DNA from: a virus
DNA: 64,000 nucleotides
Direction: 5' to 3' (one strand)
IMG/VR virus record: IMGVR_UViG_3300027687_002091
Span: 5,068-69,067 of that record
Below, piece after piece: positions 23,299-29,604 of this stretch (position 1 is the first letter of the stretch; each line of letters begins with the position of its first letter). The translations under genes were made by a program, and so were the position numbers. A model generated the notes under the pieces. The model was not told where the DNA came from, did no database searches, and saw nothing but the letters and a program-made list of their open reading frames with translations.

Positions 23299-23501
23299 TG
23301 AGCAAGCAACCAGATGGACCATTTGTAAGTGCGTTTGAAAACGATACCACAGGTGTAGTGAAACAAGAACTTATTACATATCGTGTTAAAGATGGTATGT
23401 TACGTAAGGAAGTAACAACAAGACAATTTTCATCAGGCGGTGACTACCATGATAGTCAAAGTATTTCTCCGCTAGTAAGACAGGAGAAAATGGATGCCTA
23501 A
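23298..23501 (+). CDS. Hypothetical protein
   Basis: TAATG overlap, SD present. Confidence 0.65.
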
Positions 23502-24084
23502 TCTAGTACCAGTAGTTATTGAAAAGGAATCAAGAGGCGAACGTAGTTACGACATTTATAGTAGACTACTAAAGGATAGAATTATTATGCTTGATACTGA
23601 TGTTAATTCAGTTTCATGTAGTTTAGTTGTATCACAGTTATTATTCTTAGAATCACAATCACCAGGTAAGCCTATTAGTTTTTATATTAATAGCCCGGGT
23701 GGTGTTATTAGTGACGGACTAAGTGTTTATGATACAATGCAATTTATTAAGTCACCTGTACATACTATTGTAATGGGACAAGCATGTTCAATGGGTTCGT
23801 TCTTAGCACAAGCAGGCGAAGCAGGACATCGAATGATGTTGCCACATGCAAGACACATGATACATCAGCCAAGTGGCGGTGCTCGTGGTATGGCAAGTGA
23901 TATTGAAATTTCGTACAACGAAATTATGCATTATAAAAAAATGTTAACTGAACTTTATGTTAAGCATAACAGTAAAGGTAAAACGTTTGATGACTTTACT
24001 AAAGACATGGATAGAGATACTTTTATGTCTGCACAAGAAGCTCTTGATTATGGGCTAATTGATAAAATTGTAGAAAAAGTATAA
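23494..24084 (+). CDS. clpP: ATP-dependent Clp protease proteolytic subunit
   Basis: [47 protein letters not shown]. Confidence 0.97.
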
Positions 24085-24162
24085 TGTTAGGACTATTTTT
24101 TATAGGTATTCCATTTACTATTTTAGTAATGTATATTTTAATTAAAGTTAGGGAGCATGATA

Positions 24163-24327
24163 ATGGCTGAACCATTAGACGTTTCAAAGAAACATTTTTA
24201 TATTAGTCTTGTTAAAAGTGCAACACGTATTGCAGGATGTATAGTTGCTCTAGCTACAGGTAGTTGGGAGTGGTTAGCCGTAGGCTTACTTGTTGCTGAA
24301 ATATTAGGTATAGCAGAGGAGTTGTAA
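24163..24327 (+). CDS. Small membrane protein (not in ORF track)
   Basis: MAEPLDVSKKHFYISLVKS...AEILGIAEEL. Confidence 0.6.
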   Translation: MAEPLDVSKKHFYISLVKSATRIAGCIVALATGSWEWLAVGLLVAEILGIAEEL

Positions 24328-24437
24328 ATGAAACTAAGTGAATTTAGAAAAAGGTTTGGCGAAGGAACCGATTTTGATTTAGACTATGGTAAATTAGTTA
24401 TCATAGCATTATGTCTTTATATTGCGGTGCAAGTATC

Positions 24438-24974
24438 ATGAAAAATGGACTACCCAAAGAACAGTGGTTGGTCAATTTTTTAAATAAACACGATCTTACA
24501 CGTGGAGCCGAACTAGGTGTACAAAAAGGTTATAACTTTAAGTATCTAGTTGAGAACAAACCTAACCTTGTATTACATGGTGTAGATATTTGGTCTGAAA
24601 AACATGTAAGATGGGATGAAACACCAAGTGAAGACCTACAGTTTCAACCTGACAGTGTAAACAGTGAGTTTTTAAATGACTTGCAAGAGTGGGCTAAAGA
24701 CTACAAAGGTCGAGCGTTCTTTCATAGACACTTTACAACGTATGCACACAGATTTTTTAATGAAGGCGAACTTGATTTTATTTTTATTGATGCCGGACAC
24801 GAATACCAAGATGTAAAAGCAGACATTCAATGTTGGTATCCTAAAATTAAAAAAGGCGGATATATGCTTGGGCATGATATTAATCAAGTACAAGTACGTA
24901 AAGCTGTTAGAGAACAATTTGCCGACACATGGAAACAAGCAAAGGAGCAGAAGATATGGTGGAAACAACTGTAA
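24438..24974 (+). CDS. Class I SAM methyltransferase (Methyltransf_24-like)
   Basis: GAELGVQKG, LDFIFIDAGHEYQDV, KKGGYMLGHD. Confidence 0.85.
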   Translation: MKNGLPKEQWLVNFLNKHDLTRGAELGVQKGYNFKYLVENKPNLVLHGVDIWSEKHVRWDETPSEDLQFQPDSVNSEFLNDLQEWAKDYKGRAFFHRHFTTYAHRFFNEGELDFIFIDAGHEYQDVKADIQCWYPKIKKGGYMLGHDINQVQVRKAVREQFADTWKQAKEQKIWWKQL

Positions 24975-25249
24975 CAAAAACAGTAGCAGAATTAAAAGGT
25001 ATTCCTACTCAAGAAATATTATTAGAGCAACTTCGAAAAGAAACATTAGTAGTTACTTTTAATAAACTTGATGGTGACGAACGTATTATGACTTGTACAA
25101 AGTCGTTTGATGTAATACCAGAAGAACATAAACCTAAAACAGATAAAGCACCTAAAGAAGGTAATGTAACTGTTTGGGATATAAATGCAAAAGGTTGGAG
25201 AAGTTTTAAATATGACAGAATTACTAAAGTCGAAGACGTTCAAGTATGA
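24956..25249 (+). CDS. WYL_2/SH3-barrel phage protein
   Basis: VTFNKLDGDERIMTCT...VWDINAKGWRSFK. Confidence 0.75.
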   Translation: MVETTVTKTVAELKGIPTQEILLEQLRKETLVVTFNKLDGDERIMTCTKSFDVIPEEHKPKTDKAPKEGNVTVWDINAKGWRSFKYDRITKVEDVQV

Positions 25250-25547
25250 AGACGTATTTGAAGACATTCCAGGTGACCCTGATAACGTTAATGTAAACTT
25301 TCCTCCTGATGTATTAGAACAAGCAGGATGGAGTGTTGGTGACACTATTGAAGTTACAGCAAGTAATGGCATTCTTAACTTTAAGAAATCAGGAACTCAA
25401 AAAGATTTCTCAGGAAATCTTGTTCGAATAAATATCTTGCAATCGGAAATTGAATATGCAAAGAGTCAACTGCAAGAACATGACACTGGACATATTCATA
25501 CTGCAATTAGTTGGTTAGAACACAGAATAGAAGAGTTAAACAAATAG
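25212..25547 (+). CDS. AbrB/MazE-like DNA-binding domain fused to a helical domain
   Basis: FPPDVLEQAGWSVGDTIEV motif. Confidence 0.55.
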   Translation: MTELLKSKTFKYEDVFEDIPGDPDNVNVNFPPDVLEQAGWSVGDTIEVTASNGILNFKKSGTQKDFSGNLVRINILQSEIEYAKSQLQEHDTGHIHTAISWLEHRIEELNK

Positions 25548-25636
25548 GAAGATTGCCTGAGTGGTTTAAAGGAGCGGTTTACTAAACCGTCGTAGGGGTA
25601 ACTCTACCGTGGGTTCGAATCCTACATCTTCCGCCA
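25547..25636 (+). tRNA. tRNA-Ser(ACT), class II
   Basis: Acceptor GGAAGAT/ATCTTCC, G73, CCA end, long variable arm, anticodon loop TT-ACT-AA (25581-25583). Confidence 0.85.
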
Positions 25637-25639
25637 TAC

Positions 25640-25715
25640 GCCGGCATAGCTCAGTTGGTAGAGCAATGGTTTTGTAAACCATAGGTCCCGAGTTCGAATC
25701 TTGGTGCCGGCACCA
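25640..25715 (+). tRNA. tRNA-Thr(TGT)
   Basis: Full cloverleaf, ATGGT-TTTGTAA-ACCAT, encoded CCA. Confidence 0.95.
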
Positions 25716-25730
25716 ATTAATAAATACAGT

Positions 25731-26012
25731 ATGGAAGATCGTACAAAAGAAGAAATAGTAAAAAACATAGATCATGTTATAAATCAATATGTACAGCCAG
25801 CAGTTGAACAACACGGTGGCTATATCAAACTAGAAGATTTTGACATGGAGTCAGGTAGAGTTTCAGTTTTACTCCAAGGTAGTTGTAGTGGTTGTGCTAG
25901 TAGTAGTATAACACTAAAACTAGGTGTAGAAAATATGCTTAAACACTATGTACCCGAAGTAAATTCCGTTGAAGGTATGGATGATCCAAATTTTAATAAT
26001 CCCTACTACTAA
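25731..26012 (+). CDS. NifU/NfuA C-terminal-domain Fe-S carrier
   Basis: VQPAVEQHGG, LQGSCSGCASSSITLKLGVE. Confidence 0.9.
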   Translation: MEDRTKEEIVKNIDHVINQYVQPAVEQHGGYIKLEDFDMESGRVSVLLQGSCSGCASSSITLKLGVENMLKHYVPEVNSVEGMDDPNFNNPYY

Positions 26013-26037
26013 CTAATATCTTAGAAAGGTAATATAA

Positions 26038-26277
26038 ATGGGAAGAATCTTCATTGAAGAAGCAATGGATGCTACTGGCATCAATAGAACTAACTTAGTT
26101 GGAGTATGTACTCATCTAATTAGATCAAAGCAAGCAAGCAGTCAAGCAGATGCATTAAGAAGGCTCGAAGCAGGCGAGTTTAATAAAGAAGATTTAGAAG
26201 AAGAGATGATTACTTATTATCAAGTTGAGAAACCTAAGTCAGTTATCGTTGAAGAAGATGACGGGTATCACGACTAA
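26038..26277 (+). CDS. Hypothetical protein
   Basis: 79-aa ORF with SD. Confidence 0.6.
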   Translation: MGRIFIEEAMDATGINRTNLVGVCTHLIRSKQASSQADALRRLEAGEFNKEDLEEEMITYYQVEKPKSVIVEEDDGYHD

Positions 26278-26292
26278 TACCTAACAATATGG

Positions 26293-26321
26293 TTGACAAG
26301 TGAGAAGTTTTGTAGTATAAT
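26293..26321 (+). promoter_or_regulatory. sigma70 consensus promoter
   Basis: TTGACA-17-TATAAT. Confidence 0.85.
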
Positions 26322-26352
26322 AGTTACTCACTACATAACTAAGGCACATACT

Positions 26353-26706
26353 ATGAATATTTTACATAACTTTTTAATTCCAGAAGCAGAGCATCGTAAT
26401 AAGTTTTGGGCAAAGCAACCTATAGACGATCCGCAAACTATAAACGGATTTAATGGTACATTTGCATTTAGCGAACACAGTCGAATTCCACAAGGGATTG
26501 TAGAGTTCTTGTTAGAACACTTTCATAAGAAATGTTTTAAGACTGCAAACAGTTGGAAGAAAGATCATATCGAAGCAGTCGAACTAGATGAAATAAACGA
26601 ACTGATGAACGAGATATGGGACGGACCAGGTAGCATGACTAAACTAGCACACCTAACAAACGAGATGCGTATCGCACGTTTATGGGACAATGATGACGAA
26701 GAATAA
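26353..26706 (+). CDS. Hypothetical protein
   Basis: First ATG downstream of promoter. Confidence 0.6.
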   Translation: MNILHNFLIPEAEHRNKFWAKQPIDDPQTINGFNGTFAFSEHSRIPQGIVEFLLEHFHKKCFKTANSWKKDHIEAVELDEINELMNEIWDGPGSMTKLAHLTNEMRIARLWDNDDEE

Positions 26707-26731
26707 TCCAAAAACTATTTTAGGAGTTATT

Positions 26732-26932
26732 ATGCAATACCTTAAAGAAGTAACATCTTGGGACACTCCTGTTCAAAATCATACATATATTGTTGACGAT
26801 AACAACTGGTGTGTAGGTTATATTAAGAACGGTACTACTGAAGAAATAATCTTTTCAAGGCCTATGAAGCAATGGTCTAAAAGCTATCGCAAGTTTGAAA
26901 AGGTGGTCATACATGATGACCAGAGAAGTTAG
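26732..26932 (+). CDS. Hypothetical protein
   Basis: SD AGGAG; LKEVTSW...NHTY...GYIK motif. Confidence 0.6.
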   Translation: MQYLKEVTSWDTPVQNHTYIVDDNNWCVGYIKNGTTEEIIFSRPMKQWSKSYRKFEKVVIHDDQRS

Positions 26933-26971
26933 TACGAATAAATAAGTGTAATATAACTCGAGACTACAATC

Positions 26972-27343
26972 ATGGCATATTCAGATAAGGTGATGGACCA
27001 TTACGAAAATCCTCGTAATGTTGGCAAGTGGGATTCTGGTGAAGAAGGCATTGGAACAGGGATGGTAGGAGCACCAGCATGTGGCGATGTTATGCGATTA
27101 CAAATTAAAGTAAAAGATAACATAATTACTGATGCTAAGTTTAAAACATACGGATGTGGTAGTGCTATTGCAAGCAGTAGCCTACTTACTGAATGGGTTA
27201 AAGGAATGACATTAGAAGGCGCAGGCGAAATAAAGAACACAGACCTTGCAACCGAACTTGCTCTACCTCCTGTGAAGATACACTGTTCAGTACTAGCAGA
27301 AGATGCTATCAAAGCCGCTATTGCAGATTATAAATCTAGGTGA
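26972..27343 (+). CDS. iscU: Fe-S scaffold IscU
   Basis: [50 protein letters not shown]. Confidence 0.97.
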
Positions 27344-27666
27344 TAACAATTACTGAGGTTGGTGCAAAACGTGTAACTGGCTTTTTAGAAAATCGAGGTA
27401 AAGGTCTAGGACTTAGAGTTAAGATAAGAACTACTGGGTGCTCGGGATATGCGTATGTGTTAGAGTTTGTTGACGATGTTAATGACGATGACACTGTGTT
27501 TAATTCTAATGGTATAAAGATTATCGTTGATAACAAGTCGCTAGTAATGATAGATGGGACTCATCTAGATTATGTCAAAGAAGGACTTAACGAAGGGTTT
27601 CAGTTTAAAAATCCTTGGGAAGACGCAACTTGCGGCTGTGGCGAATCTTTTACTCTTAAGAAGTAA
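27340..27666 (+). CDS. iscA: A-type Fe-S carrier IscA
   Basis: TTGCSG, CGCGESF; follows iscU. Confidence 0.93.
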
Positions 27667-27685
27667 ATATTGACTAAATATTATT

Positions 27686-27730
27686 ACGTTCAGGCAACAA
27701 GCCCGGGAGTAGCATAAGCGAAGGAACGCC
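27686..27730 (+). ncRNA. Glutamine (glnA-class) riboswitch aptamer
   Basis: P1 CGTTC/GAACG, P2 GGC/GCC, CGGGAGTA, P3 GC/GC with AGTA/GAA E-loop, GAAGGAACGC; TAAATA at 27675-27680. Confidence 0.75.
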
Positions 27731-27756
27731 CTTAACCCTTTAACGAGGAGAGTGTA

Positions 27757-27873
27757 ATGGATAATTATACGCTTTGGTGCTTTCTACGAATCATTAAACA
27801 GCGCCACATAAAAAAGATTAACTTTTTATTAAATAAAAGGTTGACATCGATAAATAAATGTAGTATAGTATAA
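27757..27873 (+). CDS. 38-aa basic peptide downstream of the riboswitch
   Basis: SD GAGGAG; MDNYTLWCFLRIIKQRHIKKINFLLNKRLTSINKCSIV. Confidence 0.55.
   Translation: MDNYTLWCFLRIIKQRHIKKINFLLNKRLTSINKCSIV
27841..27869 (+). promoter_or_regulatory. sigma70 promoter of the leader-tRNA unit
   Basis: TTGACA 27841-27846, 17 bp spacer, TATAGT 27864-27869. Confidence 0.8.
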
Positions 27874-27906
27874 ACATACTAAAAAGTAATACAAGGAATT
27901 TAAAAC

Positions 27907-27966
27907 ATGTTCAAGTCTAACACAACAAATATTAATCGTTGGCCACCAACTGGGGGTATGTCTTGA
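27907..27966 (+). CDS. Putative attenuator leader peptide MFKSNTTNINRWPPTGGMS
   Basis: SD AAGGA 27893-27897; TGG CCA CCA at 27940-27948; overlaps antiterminator arm. Confidence 0.7.
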   Translation: MFKSNTTNINRWPPTGGMS

Positions 27967-27994
27967 CGTGACTTTTTAAAAAGTTATTTTAGAT

Positions 27995-28033
27995 AAGCCC
28001 CTAGCAGTTAATTCAGTTAGGGGCTTTTTTTTT
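27995..28033 (+). terminator. Intrinsic terminator (attenuator) upstream of tRNA-Trp
   Basis: GCCCCTAGC/GTTAGGGGC stem plus 9 T. Confidence 0.9.
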
Positions 28034-28042
28034 GAAGTTTAT

Positions 28043-28117
28043 AGGGGTGTAGTGTTAATGGTAGCACGTGGGATTCCAAATCCTAAAGTTGCGGTTCGAA
28101 TCCGTACACCCTTGCCA
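28043..28117 (+). tRNA. tRNA-Trp(CCA)
   Basis: AGGGGTG/CACCCTT acceptor, TT-CCA-AA loop, G73, CCA end. Confidence 0.93.
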
Positions 28118-28121
28118 ATTA

Positions 28122-28198
28122 CGGAGTATAGGCTAGTCTGGTAAGTCGCTTGCTTTGGGAGCAAGAAATCCGAGGTTCAAATCCTCGTACTCCGACCA
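28122..28198 (+). tRNA. tRNA-Pro(TGG)
   Basis: CGGAGTA/TACTCCG acceptor, TT-TGG-GA loop, CCA end. Confidence 0.95.
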
Positions 28199-28205
28199 AT
28201 TTTTT

Positions 28206-28245
28206 ACCAAAAGTGGTTGACATTTGTATATACTGATGCTATTAT
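28206..28245 (+). promoter_or_regulatory. sigma70-type early promoter
   Basis: ACCAAAAGTGG-TTGACA 28217-28222, 17 bp spacer, TATTAT 28240-28245. Confidence 0.8.
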
Positions 28246-28275
28246 AGTAACATAATTAAATATTGAGAGGCACAC

Positions 28276-29604
28276 ATGCGTACACAACCACAGGCAATTA
28301 TCGAACGTTTAGAAGCAGACAACAGTCGTCTTGCTAAAGAAGCAATAATACTAGAAGCAATGGAAGAAGGACTAGACGAGTTCTTTGAAGGTGTTAAGAT
28401 GGCACTTGATCCATTAGTTACATTTGGTGTTAAACAAGTTCCTGAGAAAGCAGAAAACGAAGTATTGTCAGCACAAGGTTTAAGTTGGGAAAACTTTAAA
28501 GAGCTTGCAGACAAACTAATTGCAAGAGAGCTAACAGGACATGCGGCACGTGATGCAATTATCCTACAAATGAATATAGCAACAGCAGAACAATGGAATG
28601 GGTTTTACAGACGTATTTTAATTAAAGACCTACGTTGTGGTTGTAGTGAAAAGACTGTAAACAAAATTGCTAAGAAATTTCCACAGTATACGATTCCAAC
28701 ATTTACTTGTGCATTAGCACATGACTCAGCTAACCATGAAAAGAAAATGGTAGGTGTAAAGCAAATTGAAGTTAAACTAGATGGTGTACGTGTACTAGCA
28801 ATATGCCGTTCAGGCAAAGTAGAATTGTTTAGTCGTAACGGAAAACAGTTTCATAACTTTCCACACATTATTGCAGAGATTGAATCAGTACTTGCAGTAA
28901 AGCCTGCACCATATGATTGTGTACTAGACGGCGAAGTAATGAGCAAAGACTTTCAAGACCTTATGAAGCAAGTACATCGTAAAGATGGTAAAGCCGCAAC
29001 TGATAGTGTGCTACACTTGTTTGACTTTATTCCATTAGAAGACTTCCTTAAAGGTAGTTGGGATAAAAAGCAAACAGACCGTAGTAACTACGTTAAGTAT
29101 TGGGTACTAGAGAACGAAGACCTCTTAAAGCACGTACAAGCGTGTGAATGGGAAGATGTTGACCTTAGTACTACAGAAGGTAACAAACGCTTTGTAGAGC
29201 TTAATAAGACGGCTGTAGACGGTGGCTACGAAGGCGTAATGATTAAAGACGTTGATGCACCCTACGAATGCAAACGTACACATGCTTGGTTAAAGGCAAA
29301 ACCGTTTATCGAAATTACATTAACCGTCGTTGACGTTGAAGAAGGCACAGGACGTAACGAAGGAAGACTAGGTGCTGTAATAGTAGAAGGAGAAGACGAT
29401 GGATACAATTATCGCCTTAACTGTGGGAGTGGTTTCACTGACGCTCAACGTGATGAGTACTGGACTGAACGTGCTAGTCTCATTGGTCAGCTAATTGAAA
29501 TAAGAGCAGATGCTCGAACACAATCACAAGACAGTGAAACATACAGTTTACGCTTTCCACGATTCAAAACATTCCGTGGATTTCAAGCTGGTGAGAAGAT
29601 ATAA
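28276..29604 (+). CDS. lig: ATP-dependent DNA ligase
   Basis: EVKLDGVR, VLDGE, EGVMIK, WLKAK, CGSGF, SLRFPRF. Confidence 0.96.
   Translation: MRTQPQAIIERLEADNSRLAKEAIILEAMEEGLDEFFEGVKMALDPLVTFGVKQVPEKAENEVLSAQGLSWENFKELADKLIARELTGHAARDAIILQMNIATAEQWNGFYRRILIKDLRCGCSEKTVNKIAKKFPQYTIPTFTCALAHDSANHEKKMVGVKQIEVKLDGVRVLAICRSGKVELFSRNGKQFHNFPHIIAEIESVLAVKPAPYDCVLDGEVMSKDFQDLMKQVHRKDGKAATDSVLHLFDFIPLEDFLKGSWDKKQTDRSNYVKYWVLENEDLLKHVQACEWEDVDLSTTEGNKRFVELNKTAVDGGYEGVMIKDVDAPYECKRTHAWLKAKPFIEITLTVVDVEEGTGRNEGRLGAVIVEGEDDGYNYRLNCGSGFTDAQRDEYWTERASLIGQLIEIRADARTQSQDSETYSLRFPRFKTFRGFQAGEKI

What the first reader, a model, noticed from the sequence alone, without database searches (positions are those of the whole stretch)
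27841..28198. Leader-peptide attenuator gating phage tRNA-Trp and tRNA-Pro with their own codons
Seen, in order: a sigma70 promoter; SD plus a 19-codon ORF MFKSNTTNINRWPPTGGMS with TGG-CCA-CCA at 27940-27948; a strong intrinsic terminator (27995-28033); tRNA-Trp(CCA); tRNA-Pro(TGG). These two tRNAs decode TGG and CCA. Leader bases CTGGGGGTATGTCT (27950-27963) can pair at 13 of 14 positions (3 G-U) with AGATAAGCCCCTAG (27991-28004), the 5' arm of the terminator. An inner GTGACTTT/AAAGTTAT stem extends this mutually exclusive antiterminator. Established: this is the architecture of trp/his ribosome-mediated attenuators. Inference: a ribosome stalled at W-P-P leaves the arm free and the tRNAs are transcribed, whereas one reaching the stop masks it and transcription terminates. 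The phage would then make replacement tRNAs on demand, e.g. when host tRNA is depleted or cut by anticodon-nuclease defence. RxPP is also a known stalling motif, so the signal could instead be EF-P status or general ribosome pausing. I do not know of a described attenuator whose output is tRNA genes.
Basis: partly seen in the sequence, partly recalled or inferred. Interest (0 to 1): 0.92.

Follow-up and report, generated by a model that had tools for sequence, protein, structure and literature searches.

The report
Trp-codon attenuator gating phage tRNA genes
An uncultured marine phage puts a tiny translated test gene with one never-changing tryptophan codon and a switchable transcription stop in front of its own tRNA-Trp and tRNA-Pro genes, so it probably makes them mainly when ribosomes read that codon slowly.

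Summary
It is not chance. I collected 53 distinct related leaders from viral contigs. All 53 have an SD, a 15-24-codon uORF with an in-frame TGG, an intrinsic terminator, and tRNA-Trp as the first gene behind it.

The RNA has the four-segment layout of the trp attenuator:
- A 5' fold ties the start codon, codons 2-4 and the CC.CC of the Pro codons to an invariant block, GGGGUAUGUCUUGACGUG.
- That block can instead pair with the 5' arm of the terminator.
- The terminated fold shows compensatory changes.
- The antiterminator pairs but does not covary, because one strand never varies.

In folds with a ribosome mask, the antiterminator forms with TGG in the A site in 53/53 leaders and with the stop codon there in 3/53.

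Leader codons for Cys, AUA, UCR, Tyr and Gln follow the tRNA genes downstream. Pro codons do not. They are present whether or not tRNA-Pro follows, and a stall at the second Pro codon masks the switch.

Verdict: the attenuator reading is supported for Trp and doubtful for Pro. Six literature searches found no description. This scan's earlier notes report the same family on other genomes. Nothing here is experimental.

The parts
27841..27869 (+). sigma-70-type promoter TTGACA-17-TATAGT of the leader
   Evidence: 11 of 12 matches. GGTTGAC plus a -10 box lies ahead of every full-length leader printed.
27893..27898 (+). Shine-Dalgarno AAGGAA
   Evidence: A4 and G6 of the alignment are at least 90% conserved.
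27907..27966 (+). leader ORF, 19 codons, MFKSNTTNINRWPPTGGMS, stop TGA
   Evidence: A uORF of 15-24 codons is present in 53/53 relatives. ATG-to-TGG distance is 27, 30, 33 or 36 nt, always in frame.
27906..27917 (+). 5' strand of helix P1 (CAUG plus codons 2-4), which pairs with 27960-27970
   Evidence: GTG-start leaders carry the compensating change (A-U 50, G-C 2).
27937..27942 (+). proposed control codons: CGT (TGT, Cys, in most relatives) and TGG (Trp)
   Evidence: TGG is invariant (T50, G51). W12 is the last codon at which a stalled ribosome leaves the antiterminator free. The Cys codon is lost only where no tRNA-Cys follows.
27943..27948 (+). segment 1: CCACCA (the Pro-Pro codons), which pairs with GGGG 27953-27956
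   Evidence: Helix 3 (98.1% of cells paired; only C-to-U changes). Folds.
27952..27974 (+). segment 2: the almost invariant block GGGGGTATGTCTTGACGTGACTT, the hub of both alternative folds
   Evidence: Invariant and nearly invariant columns. Its reading frame differs in 6/53 leaders, so it is kept as RNA, not as codons.
27968..27987 (+). small hairpin GUGACUUU/AAAGUUAU inside the antiterminator
   Evidence: Helix 2 (89.6% paired). Six relatives have a different hairpin built on UUGACGU/ACGUCAA.
27991..28005 (+). segment 3: 5' arm of the terminator, alternative partner of segment 2
27996..28033 (+). intrinsic terminator (10-bp stem, 10-nt loop, nine T)
   Evidence: -16.8 kcal/mol. Helix 4 (97.3% paired; C-G 24 against U-A 23 at one pair; CCUC/GAGG in L106).
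28043..28117 (+). tRNA-Trp (CCA), first regulated gene
   Evidence: It is the first gene behind the leader in 53/53.
28122..28198 (+). tRNA-Pro (UGG), second regulated gene
   Evidence: Present behind 20 of 47 distinct leader/array combinations.
28217..28245 (+). next promoter (TTGACA-17-TATTAT) for the DNA ligase gene; marks the end of the unit

Best explanation
This is a ribosome-mediated (leader-peptide) transcription attenuator of the trp-operon type. Its regulated genes are the phage's own tRNA genes.

Proposed mechanism (inferred):
1. Host RNA polymerase starts at the sigma-70-type promoter and transcribes a 19-codon leader ORF.
2. If the ribosome runs quickly to the stop codon, it sits on the invariant block GGGGGUAUGUCUUGAC. 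After release, that block is tied up by the 5' fold (start codon, codons 2-4 and CCACC).
3. The terminator hairpin then forms, and transcription ends 10 nt before tRNA-Trp.
4. If the ribosome waits with TGG (or an earlier codon) in its A site, the block is free. It pairs with the 5' arm of the terminator, and polymerase reads on into tRNA-Trp and tRNA-Pro.

The sensed quantity is the supply of charged tRNA-Trp and, in relatives, of Cys, AUA-, UCR-, Tyr- and Gln-reading tRNAs. The Pro-Pro codons most likely serve as the C-rich RNA segment 1 rather than as a proline sensor.

Shown here: the elements, their conservation, the alternative folds, covariation of the terminated fold, and codon tracking.
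Inferred: that translation speed decides between the folds, and what physiological condition triggers it.
For: 1. Conservation. 53 distinct leaders were found (103 anchor matches gave 55 distinct stretches, 2 of them false hits inside a gene). All 53 have a uORF (48 by a strict SD pattern, 5 by a relaxed one). All have a terminator and tRNA-Trp first (52 by ARAGORN; L108 by eye, anticodon loop TTCCAAA).

2. Translation. TGG is in frame in 53/53, at 27, 30, 33 or 36 nt from the start. The invariant block is out of the majority frame in 6/53. In 2 leaders the stop lies just before the block, and in 4 it lies after it.

3. Structure.
- Terminated fold: 94.4% of 1502 cells paired, 8 pairs with changes on both sides against 3.2+-1.0 in shuffles (0/500 reach it), slid controls 35-47%.
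- The full-length MFE contains the terminator in 53/53.
- In the transcript cut before the 3' arm, the antiterminator is the MFE with the A site at W-1 in 53/53, at W in 53/53, at W+1 in 24/53, at W+2 in 8/53 and at the stop in 3/53.
- In the window, W12 is the last permissive codon.

4. No other route to the tRNAs. Only 9 nt lie between the T run and tRNA-Trp, and no promoter-like site lies there.

5. Codon tracking. In 47 distinct leader/array combinations, the variable region holds 106 cognate codons against 70.9+-4.9 in 20000 permutations (none reached 106).
- tRNA-Cys: 25/25 leaders have a Cys codon, against 15/22 without the tRNA.
- tRNA-Ser(tga): 6/7 against 5/40.
- tRNA(tat): 6/6 against 8/41.
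- Phylogenetically independent pairs (same: opposite): Cys 2.5:0, Ser 2.7:0, Ile 2.7:0, Tyr 2:0, Gln 1.7:0.
- Two unrelated tRNA-Cys lineages and two tRNA-Tyr lineages are involved.
Against: - There is no experiment. RNA-library contigs cannot show transcript ends.
- The antiterminator has no covariation. 83.8% of cells pair, the same as in shuffles (234/500 reach it), because its 5' strand is invariant.
- Without any ribosome, the cut transcript also folds into the antiterminator in 47/53 leaders. The window's 5' fold is weak (-10.5 against -19.6 kcal/mol). The 'no translation' state may therefore read through, unlike E. coli trp.
- There is only one Trp codon, where trpL has two.
- Tracking is incomplete. 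15 of 22 leaders without tRNA-Cys keep Cys codons, one leader with tRNA-Ser(tga) has no UCR codon (L085), and the Gly codons in L083 and L104 are GGT, which a UCC anticodon does not read by strict wobble.
- The thresholds used were chosen after seeing the data. Each trait alone has too few pairs for significance.
- Six of the 40 loci with tRNA-Trp from the fetch have a plain promoter and no leader, so the leader is dispensable.
Confidence: 0.68

Rival explanations
1. General translation-status or EF-P sensor. The W-P-P motif stalls ribosomes by itself, and the leader reports global elongation capacity or EF-P activity rather than the supply of particular tRNAs.
For: WPP or WCPP is present in most leaders. 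Proline pairs are a known stall motif (recalled). CCN codons are kept regardless of the tRNA cargo.
Against: - A stall with the second Pro codon in the A site masks GGGG. The antiterminator then forms in 8/53 relatives and never in the window, so such a stall would terminate, not induce.
- 15 of the 53 leaders printed have WPL, WPS, WCS, WCT, WCL or WCP-other instead of PP.
- Codon tracking for Cys, AUA, UCR and Tyr needs codon-specific sensing.
- CC.CC pairs with GGGG.
Confidence: 0.1
2. Stand-alone small gene. The promoter-to-terminator unit makes a small RNA or a 19-residue peptide with its own function, as trp attenuator RNAs do in some bacteria. The tRNAs are then made only by constitutive leak through the terminator.
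For: The unit is complete, with promoter, ORF and strong terminator. The N-terminal M-x-K/Q-T-N-T is fairly conserved. RNA-library contigs hold the 5' half exactly (X16 record 12, X17 record 19).
Against: - The N-terminal conservation is explained by pairing with the invariant block (helix 1).
- The C-terminal 'GMS' is out of frame or untranslated in 6/53.
- The unit is always fused to a tRNA-Trp that has no promoter of its own.
- Codon tracking would be unexplained.
- This reading is not exclusive of attenuation.
Confidence: 0.1
3. A switch that binds tRNA or a protein directly (T-box-like, TRAP-like or PyrR-like). The leader RNA would bind tRNA-Trp or a phage or host protein, and the ORF would be incidental.
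For: The 22-nt block is more conserved than anything else in the leader, as a binding site would be. There are weak sub-threshold Rfam matches: PyrR 21.9 bits and PyrG_leader 25 bits, His_leader 25.7 bits in L017.
Against: - All those matches are far below their gathering scores (54, 65 and 49). No T-box match appears at E up to 10.
- The start codon, SD and TGG frame are conserved.
- The block's invariance is explained by its several RNA partners.
Confidence: 0.05
4. An internal promoter (TTGACG-16-TATTTT, 27963-27990) drives the tRNAs, and the terminator only ends upstream transcription.
For: One search lists this site (9 of 12 matches). TTGAC is invariant.
Against: - A start about 7 nt after 27990 would still include the whole terminator hairpin.
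- The -10 is not conserved: TATTTC with an 18-nt spacer in L003-type leaders, and absent in the L033, L088, L121 and L127 hairpin variants.
Confidence: 0.03

Closest known systems
trp operon attenuator of Escherichia coli (trpL leader peptide; Rfam Trp_leader RF00513)
   Same: Promoter, SD, short leader ORF with a Trp control codon, and four RNA segments. Segment 1 overlaps the ORF just after the control codon. Segment 2 can pair with 1 or 3, and 3:4 is an intrinsic terminator. The stop codon is placed so that a terminating ribosome covers segment 2.
   Different: - The output is tRNA genes of a phage, not biosynthetic enzymes.
- There is one Trp codon, not two.
- There is no sequence or structure match to RF00513 (no hit at E up to 10).
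- The start codon itself is part of the 5' fold.
- The antiterminator is thermodynamically favoured even without a ribosome in 47/53 leaders.
- What is sensed can be corrected by the product itself (more tRNA), so the circuit is a direct feedback loop.
Multivalent leader-peptide attenuators (thrL for Thr and Ile; the ilvGMEDA leader for Ile, Leu and Val) - recalled, not examined here
   Same: One leader carries control codons for several amino acids. Here, relatives combine Trp with Cys, AUA, UCR, Tyr and Gln codons that match the tRNA cargo.
   Different: The codon set changes with a rapidly reshuffled tRNA cargo, and the outputs are tRNAs.
T-box riboswitches and the B. subtilis rtpA leader peptide, which senses tRNA-Trp charging (recalled)
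   Same: They sense the state of a specific tRNA to control transcription or translation downstream.
   Different: T-box RNAs bind uncharged tRNA directly and have Stem I, a specifier loop and the T-box sequence. None of these was detected. Their outputs are synthetases, transporters or anti-TRAP, not tRNA genes.
The same leader family, and analogous cassettes, noted earlier in this scan on other phage genomes (e1-6094746, e1-5929164, e1-5729342, e1-5345692, e1-6218245; other families e1-5845400 and e1-5694632)
   Same: A Trp-led tRNA array behind a uORF plus switchable terminator, with codons that follow the cargo.
   Different: Those are unchecked AI notes on other DNA and are not independent evidence. 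This window is the Trp+Pro variant, with CGT instead of TGT before TGG.

Membership tests
Ribosome-mediated leader-peptide transcription attenuators (trpL/hisL/pheL/thrL class) | Short leader ORF with its own SD and start codon, kept open and in frame | tested here: met
   53/53 relatives have a uORF of 15-24 codons. ATG-to-TGG distance is 27, 30, 33 or 36 nt. The SD is conserved.
Ribosome-mediated leader-peptide transcription attenuators (trpL/hisL/pheL/thrL class) | Control codons that correspond to the regulated product | tested here: met
   TGG is present in 53/53 leaders ahead of tRNA-Trp. Cys, AUA, UCR, Tyr and Gln codons follow the tRNA cargo. For Pro the test is negative: CCN codons are present with or without tRNA-Pro.
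Ribosome-mediated leader-peptide transcription attenuators (trpL/hisL/pheL/thrL class) | Intrinsic terminator between the leader ORF and the regulated genes, with no promoter after it | tested here: met
   The terminator covaries.
Ribosome-mediated leader-peptide transcription attenuators (trpL/hisL/pheL/thrL class) | Mutually exclusive antiterminator whose 5' arm is freed by a ribosome at the control codon and covered by one at the stop codon | tested here: met
   Thermodynamic folds with footprint masks: 53/53 with W in the A site, 3/53 at the stop; window profile. There is no covariation for the antiterminator.
Ribosome-mediated leader-peptide transcription attenuators (trpL/hisL/pheL/thrL class) | A 1:2 (anti-antiterminator) pairing that overlaps the leader ORF | tested here: met
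   Helices 1-3 (89.8%, 96.2% and 98.1% paired; 5 pairs with compensatory changes in helices 1-2).
Ribosome-mediated leader-peptide transcription attenuators (trpL/hisL/pheL/thrL class) | Read-through that depends on translation of the leader and on charged tRNA | not testable with these tools
   This needs reporters or coupled transcription-translation. RNA contigs cannot show transcript ends.
Ribosome-mediated leader-peptide transcription attenuators (trpL/hisL/pheL/thrL class) | Regulated genes are amino-acid biosynthesis or related protein genes (as in all described members known to me) | tested here: not met
   The regulated genes are tRNA-Trp and tRNA-Pro. This is the point of novelty, not a mechanistic failure.
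Rfam Trp_leader (RF00513) | Covariance-model score at or above the gathering threshold | tested here: not met
   No RF00513 match at E up to 10 in 27600-28300.
T-box leader | Stem I with specifier loop, plus the T-box sequence in the antiterminator bulge (Rfam model) | tested here: not met
   No T-box match at E up to 10 in the window or at E up to 1 in L017.

The most novel reading that the evidence does not exclude
Large marine phages carry a modular 'sense-and-replace' circuit for tRNAs. A leader peptide holds codons that are rewritten by evolution to match whatever tRNA genes lie behind it, and this gates their transcription. The phage then tops up exactly those tRNAs that the infected cell runs short of, for example after host shut-off, host tRNA decay or cleavage by anticodon-nuclease defences. 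In this window the sensor is the single Trp codon. The circuit would be the first attenuator whose product directly relieves the stall that induces it.
Probability: 0.5. Interest if true: 0.9.

Novelty: new variant of a known kind. Interest (0 to 1): 0.8.

Why it matters
Why phages carry tRNA genes, and when they use them, is still debated (codon compensation, replacement of degraded host tRNAs, escape from tRNA-cleaving defences; PMC10264068 and PMC11464382, seen only as search listings and abstract starts).

A codon-matched attenuator would show that some phages measure decoding speed at particular codons and make their tRNAs on demand. It would extend a textbook mechanism, known for amino-acid operons, to RNA genes.

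The idea becomes directly testable, because the promoter is sigma-70 consensus and the unit is only about 200 nt. It would also give a compact, reprogrammable sensor of tRNA availability.

Tried and rejected
- Chance: rejected because of conservation in 53 leaders.

- Internal promoter at 27963-27990: rejected. The -10 is not conserved, and the transcript would still contain the terminator.

- Known RNA families: none reaches threshold.

- A second leader type ahead of tRNA-Arg(gcg): not found. 14 distinct upstream regions were printed. 10 show a promoter-like TTGACA/TTGACT just ahead of the tRNA, L030/L041/L045 have a promoter plus a ~95-nt non-coding structured stretch, and 4 (L034, L056, L068, L031/L044-type partly) show other contexts.

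- The window's other tRNA pair (Ser, Thr at 25547-25715) follows an ORF directly and has no leader.

- Cultured relatives: none close. In the phage collection only the tRNA parts match as DNA, and the ligase is at most 35% identical. Host and phage family remain unnamed; marine origin rests on the run labels.

- Expression. Four RNA-library runs were laid.
  - Exact pieces cover 27695-27947 (X16), 27709-27902 (X17), 28070-28147 (X15), 28119-28295 (X17) and 28119-28202 (X18).
  - No piece covers 27958-28004.
  - Contigs show neither ends nor strand, and DNA carry-over is possible. I draw nothing from the covered or uncovered parts about termination.

- Identity of the 'cat' tRNAs (Met or Ile2): not resolved. 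If they read AUA, 10 of 11 leaders with two or more ATA codons would have an AUA reader downstream (counted by eye).

- Kinetic (co-transcriptional) folding was not simulated.

- Set completeness. L001 (block variant UACGUC) was missed by my anchor pattern and is not among the 53. It has a Cys codon and tRNA-Cys. L012 was left out of alignment A1 because its leader equals L007's.

- Paper supplements were not consulted.
Full report
**What is in the window**

Reading 27601-28500 together with the scans confirms each item of the finding:
- a promoter TTGACA-17-TATAGT at 27841-27869 (11 of 12 matches);
- AAGGAA at 27893-27898;
- an ORF from ATG 27907 to TGA 27964-27966 that reads MFKSNTTNINRWPPTGGMS, with TGG-CCA-CCA at 27940-27948;
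- a small hairpin GUGACUUU/AAAGUUAU (27968-27987);
- a terminator with a 10-bp stem (27996-28025, -16.8 kcal/mol) and nine T up to 28033;
- tRNA-Trp(cca) at 28043-28117 and tRNA-Pro(tgg) at 28122-28198;
- the next promoter at 28217 and a DNA ligase gene at 28276-29604.

Only 9 nt separate the T run from tRNA-Trp. No promoter-like site lies there. The tRNAs can therefore be transcribed only through the terminator.

**Relatives**

The window is a 69-kb virus record. Its words occur in seawater and marine metagenome runs. No cultured phage is close.

Two searches gave the comparison set:
- The ligase as a handle found 553 related loci in viral contigs, of which 80 were fetched.
- A 19-letter pattern from the conserved block found 70 stretches.

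Anchoring on the block gave 103 matches in 55 distinct stretches. Two of these are false hits inside a gene, which leaves 53 distinct leaders including the window.

All 53 have a uORF of 15-24 codons behind an SD-like purine run, an intrinsic terminator, and a tRNA-Trp as the first gene. ARAGORN calls it in 52. In L108 the tRNA with anticodon loop TTCCAAA is visible by eye.

The genes behind tRNA-Trp differ widely: nothing, Cys, Pro, Pro-Cys, Met-Pro-Cys, Lys-Gln-Cys, Pro-Ser-Cys, Tyr, Tyr-Cys, Ile(tat), Arg, Ala and longer arrays.

Among the 40 loci with a tRNA-Trp from the fetch, six (L002, L051, L067, L074-L076) have a plain promoter directly before tRNA-Trp and no leader. The leader is therefore an optional module.

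**Is the ORF translated?**

The distance from the start codon to the conserved TGG is 27, 30, 33 or 36 nt, so TGG is in frame in 53/53 leaders across at least three length classes.

By contrast, the almost invariant block GGGGTATGTCTTGAC(G/A)TGACTT lies in a different frame in 6/53. In two leaders the stop codon (TAG) comes just before it, and in four it comes after it.

The TGG is therefore kept as a codon, and the block is kept as nucleic acid. The 'GMS' end of the peptide is a by-product of the block.

**RNA folds**

- CAUG plus codons 2-4 (27906-27917) pairs with GUCUUGACGUG (27960-27970).
- AACA pairs with the letters just before TGG.
- The CC.CC of the two Pro codons (27943-27947) pairs with GGGG (27953-27956).

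Counted on the alignment together with the terminator:
- 94.4% of 1502 cells pair.
- 8 pairs have changes on both sides, against 3.2+-1.0 in shuffles (0 of 500 reach 8).
- Slid controls pair at 35-47%.
- The two GTG-start leaders carry the compensating T-to-C change in the block.
- The terminator has C-G in 24 and U-A in 23 sequences at one pair, and CCUC/GAGG in L106.

Its three outermost pairs are particular to this window. The conserved core is GGGG:CCCC, U-G, U-A, G-Y and U-R.

The block's invariance is explained by its several partners: the 5' fold, the small hairpin and the terminator arm.

This is the four-segment layout of the trp attenuator:
- segment 1 = CCACC, just after the control codon;
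- segment 2 = the block;
- segment 3 = the 5' arm of the terminator;
- segment 4 = the 3' arm.

**Does ribosome position decide the fold?**

I folded each leader cut just before the terminator's 3' arm, with a footprint from 15 nt before to 11 nt after the first base of the A-site codon.

| Codon in the A site | Leaders in which the antiterminator is the MFE |
|---|---|
| Codon before W | 53/53 |
| W | 53/53 |
| W+1 | 24/53 |
| W+2 | 8/53 |
| Stop codon | 3/53 |

The three at the stop codon are the L041, L045 and L048 leaders, whose stop lies far downstream. The full-length MFE contains the terminator in 53/53.

In the window, W12 is the last permissive codon. P13 is permissive only with a shorter leading edge (+8), and P14 never is. 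The Trp codon thus sits exactly at the boundary where a waiting ribosome still frees the switch. A Pro-Pro stall (second Pro in the A site) would cover GGGG and favour termination.

One departure from E. coli trp: without any ribosome the cut transcript also prefers the antiterminator in 47/53 leaders. The window's 5' fold is weak (-10.5 kcal/mol) compared with the antiterminator (-19.6). Termination may therefore need a ribosome that reaches the stop codon, unless the 5' fold is a kinetic trap. I did not simulate this.

**Do leader codons follow the tRNA cargo?**

I took the variable part of the uORF, from codon 5 to the block, in 47 distinct leader/array combinations. I counted codons cognate to the downstream tRNAs other than Trp. 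The total was 106, against 70.9+-4.9 in 20000 permutations of the arrays among leaders. None reached 106.

| Downstream tRNA | Leaders with a cognate codon, tRNA present | Leaders with a cognate codon, tRNA absent |
|---|---|---|
| Cys | 25/25 | 15/22 |
| Ser(tga), TCR/TCT | 6/7 | 5/40 |
| tat, ATA | 6/6 (mean 2.7 codons) | 8/41 |
| Tyr | 3/3 (mean 2.0 codons) | mean 0.45 codons |
| Gln | 2/2 | 8/45 |
| Pro | 20/20 | 26/27 |

The seven leaders without a Cys codon have R, G, Y or N next to W. The window, with CGT, is one of them. All seven lack tRNA-Cys.

Because leader and cargo are linked, I also used phylogenetically independent pairs. The tree was built from the promoter, block, terminator and tRNA-Trp, without the variable codons. 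On supported branches, the codon state went the same way as the tRNA state versus the opposite way as follows:

| Trait | Same way | Opposite way |
|---|---|---|
| Cys | 2.5 | 0 |
| Ser | 2.7 | 0 |
| Ile | 2.7 | 0 |
| Tyr | 2.0 | 0 |
| Gln | 1.7 | 0 |
| Pro | 0.5 | 0.4 |

No single trait has enough pairs for significance, and I chose the thresholds after seeing the data. The pooled direction (about 11.6 to 0) is nonetheless consistent.

Two unrelated tRNA-Cys lineages and two tRNA-Tyr lineages lie behind the leaders. This argues for repeated events.

Exceptions:
- 15 leaders keep Cys codons without tRNA-Cys.
- L085 has tRNA-Ser(tga) but no UCR codon.
- The Gly codons that replace Cys in L083 and L104 (both with tRNA-Gly(tcc)) are GGT, which is not a strict wobble match.

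**What this means for the finding**

The attenuator reading is well supported for tRNA-Trp. The claim that the two tRNAs are gated 'with their own codons' is half right.
- The Pro codons are there in almost every leader, whatever the cargo.
- They form RNA segment 1.
- They are badly placed for a productive stall.

The idea that the phage replaces depleted or cleaved host tRNAs is plausible but untested here.

**Expression data**

Six metatranscriptome runs hold about a fifth of the words of 27300-28700. Four were laid.

Exact contig pieces cover 27695-27947 (X16), 27709-27902 (X17), 28070-28147 (X15, bridging Trp to Pro), 28119-28295 (X17) and 28119-28202 (X18).

These are contigs. They show neither ends nor strand, and DNA carry-over is possible. 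At most they say that the region is present in RNA libraries of several studies, and that something upstream reads across the leader promoter.

**Known families and novelty**

No Rfam family reaches its threshold. The best matches are PyrG_leader at 25 bits against 65, PyrR at 21.9 against 54, and His_leader at 25.7 against 49 in L017. There is no Trp_leader or T-box match.

Six full-text searches listed nothing on attenuators or leader peptides ahead of tRNA genes. I saw titles and abstract starts only, the library lacks most subscription journals, and paper supplements were closed.

Notes of this scan report the same leader family, and analogous cassettes in other phage groups, on other genomes. 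They are AI notes, not independent evidence, but they show that this window is one more member of something the scan has met before.

I class it as a new variant of a known kind: the trp-type mechanism, with tRNA genes as its output and a codon set that follows a mobile cargo.

**Confidence**
- About 0.68 that this is a translation-controlled attenuator with TGG as its key codon.
- About 0.25 that the Pro codons act as a proline-tRNA sensor.
- About 0.2 that the trigger is a host defence rather than general tRNA shortage during infection.

Noticed in passing
window 27685-27873: A glutamine-riboswitch-like element sits just below Rfam's threshold (RF01739, 33.5 bits against 35, E 2e-5). It is followed by a 38-codon ORF (27757-27873) that overlaps the leader's promoter. 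RNA-library contigs run exactly across it into the uORF.
   Followed up: partly
L017:2524-2616 (also L019, L026, L027, L039, L091-L093, L104, L105, L111, L130, L144, L147): 14 of the 53 relatives carry a strongly paired insert of about 85-100 nt (ACTACACTAC...GTAGTGTAGT) between the leader terminator and tRNA-Trp. It matches no Rfam family. Its function is unknown, and it would be co-transcribed with the tRNAs.
   Followed up: partly
L030, L083, L094, L130, L140 (relatives): The tRNA that ARAGORN calls Ile(tat) is 92-94 nt long, with a long variable arm and A73. It is a type-II-shaped tRNA that reads AUA, so the amino acid it carries is open.
   Followed up: no
window 25547-25636: tRNA-Ser with the unusual anticodon ACT (A34), followed by tRNA-Thr(tgt). 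It follows an ORF directly and has no leader.
   Followed up: no
L030, L041, L045 upstream of tRNA-Arg(gcg): A promoter plus a structured non-coding stretch of about 95 nt precedes tRNA-Arg(gcg) in these three loci. In 10 other distinct contexts a promoter-like site lies directly before the tRNA.
   Followed up: no
window 23494-27666: Host-like metabolic genes lie upstream, judged from the translations: a ClpP-like protease and IscU-, IscA- and Nfu-like Fe-S cluster proteins. The names come from my reading of the sequences, not from a family search.
   Followed up: no
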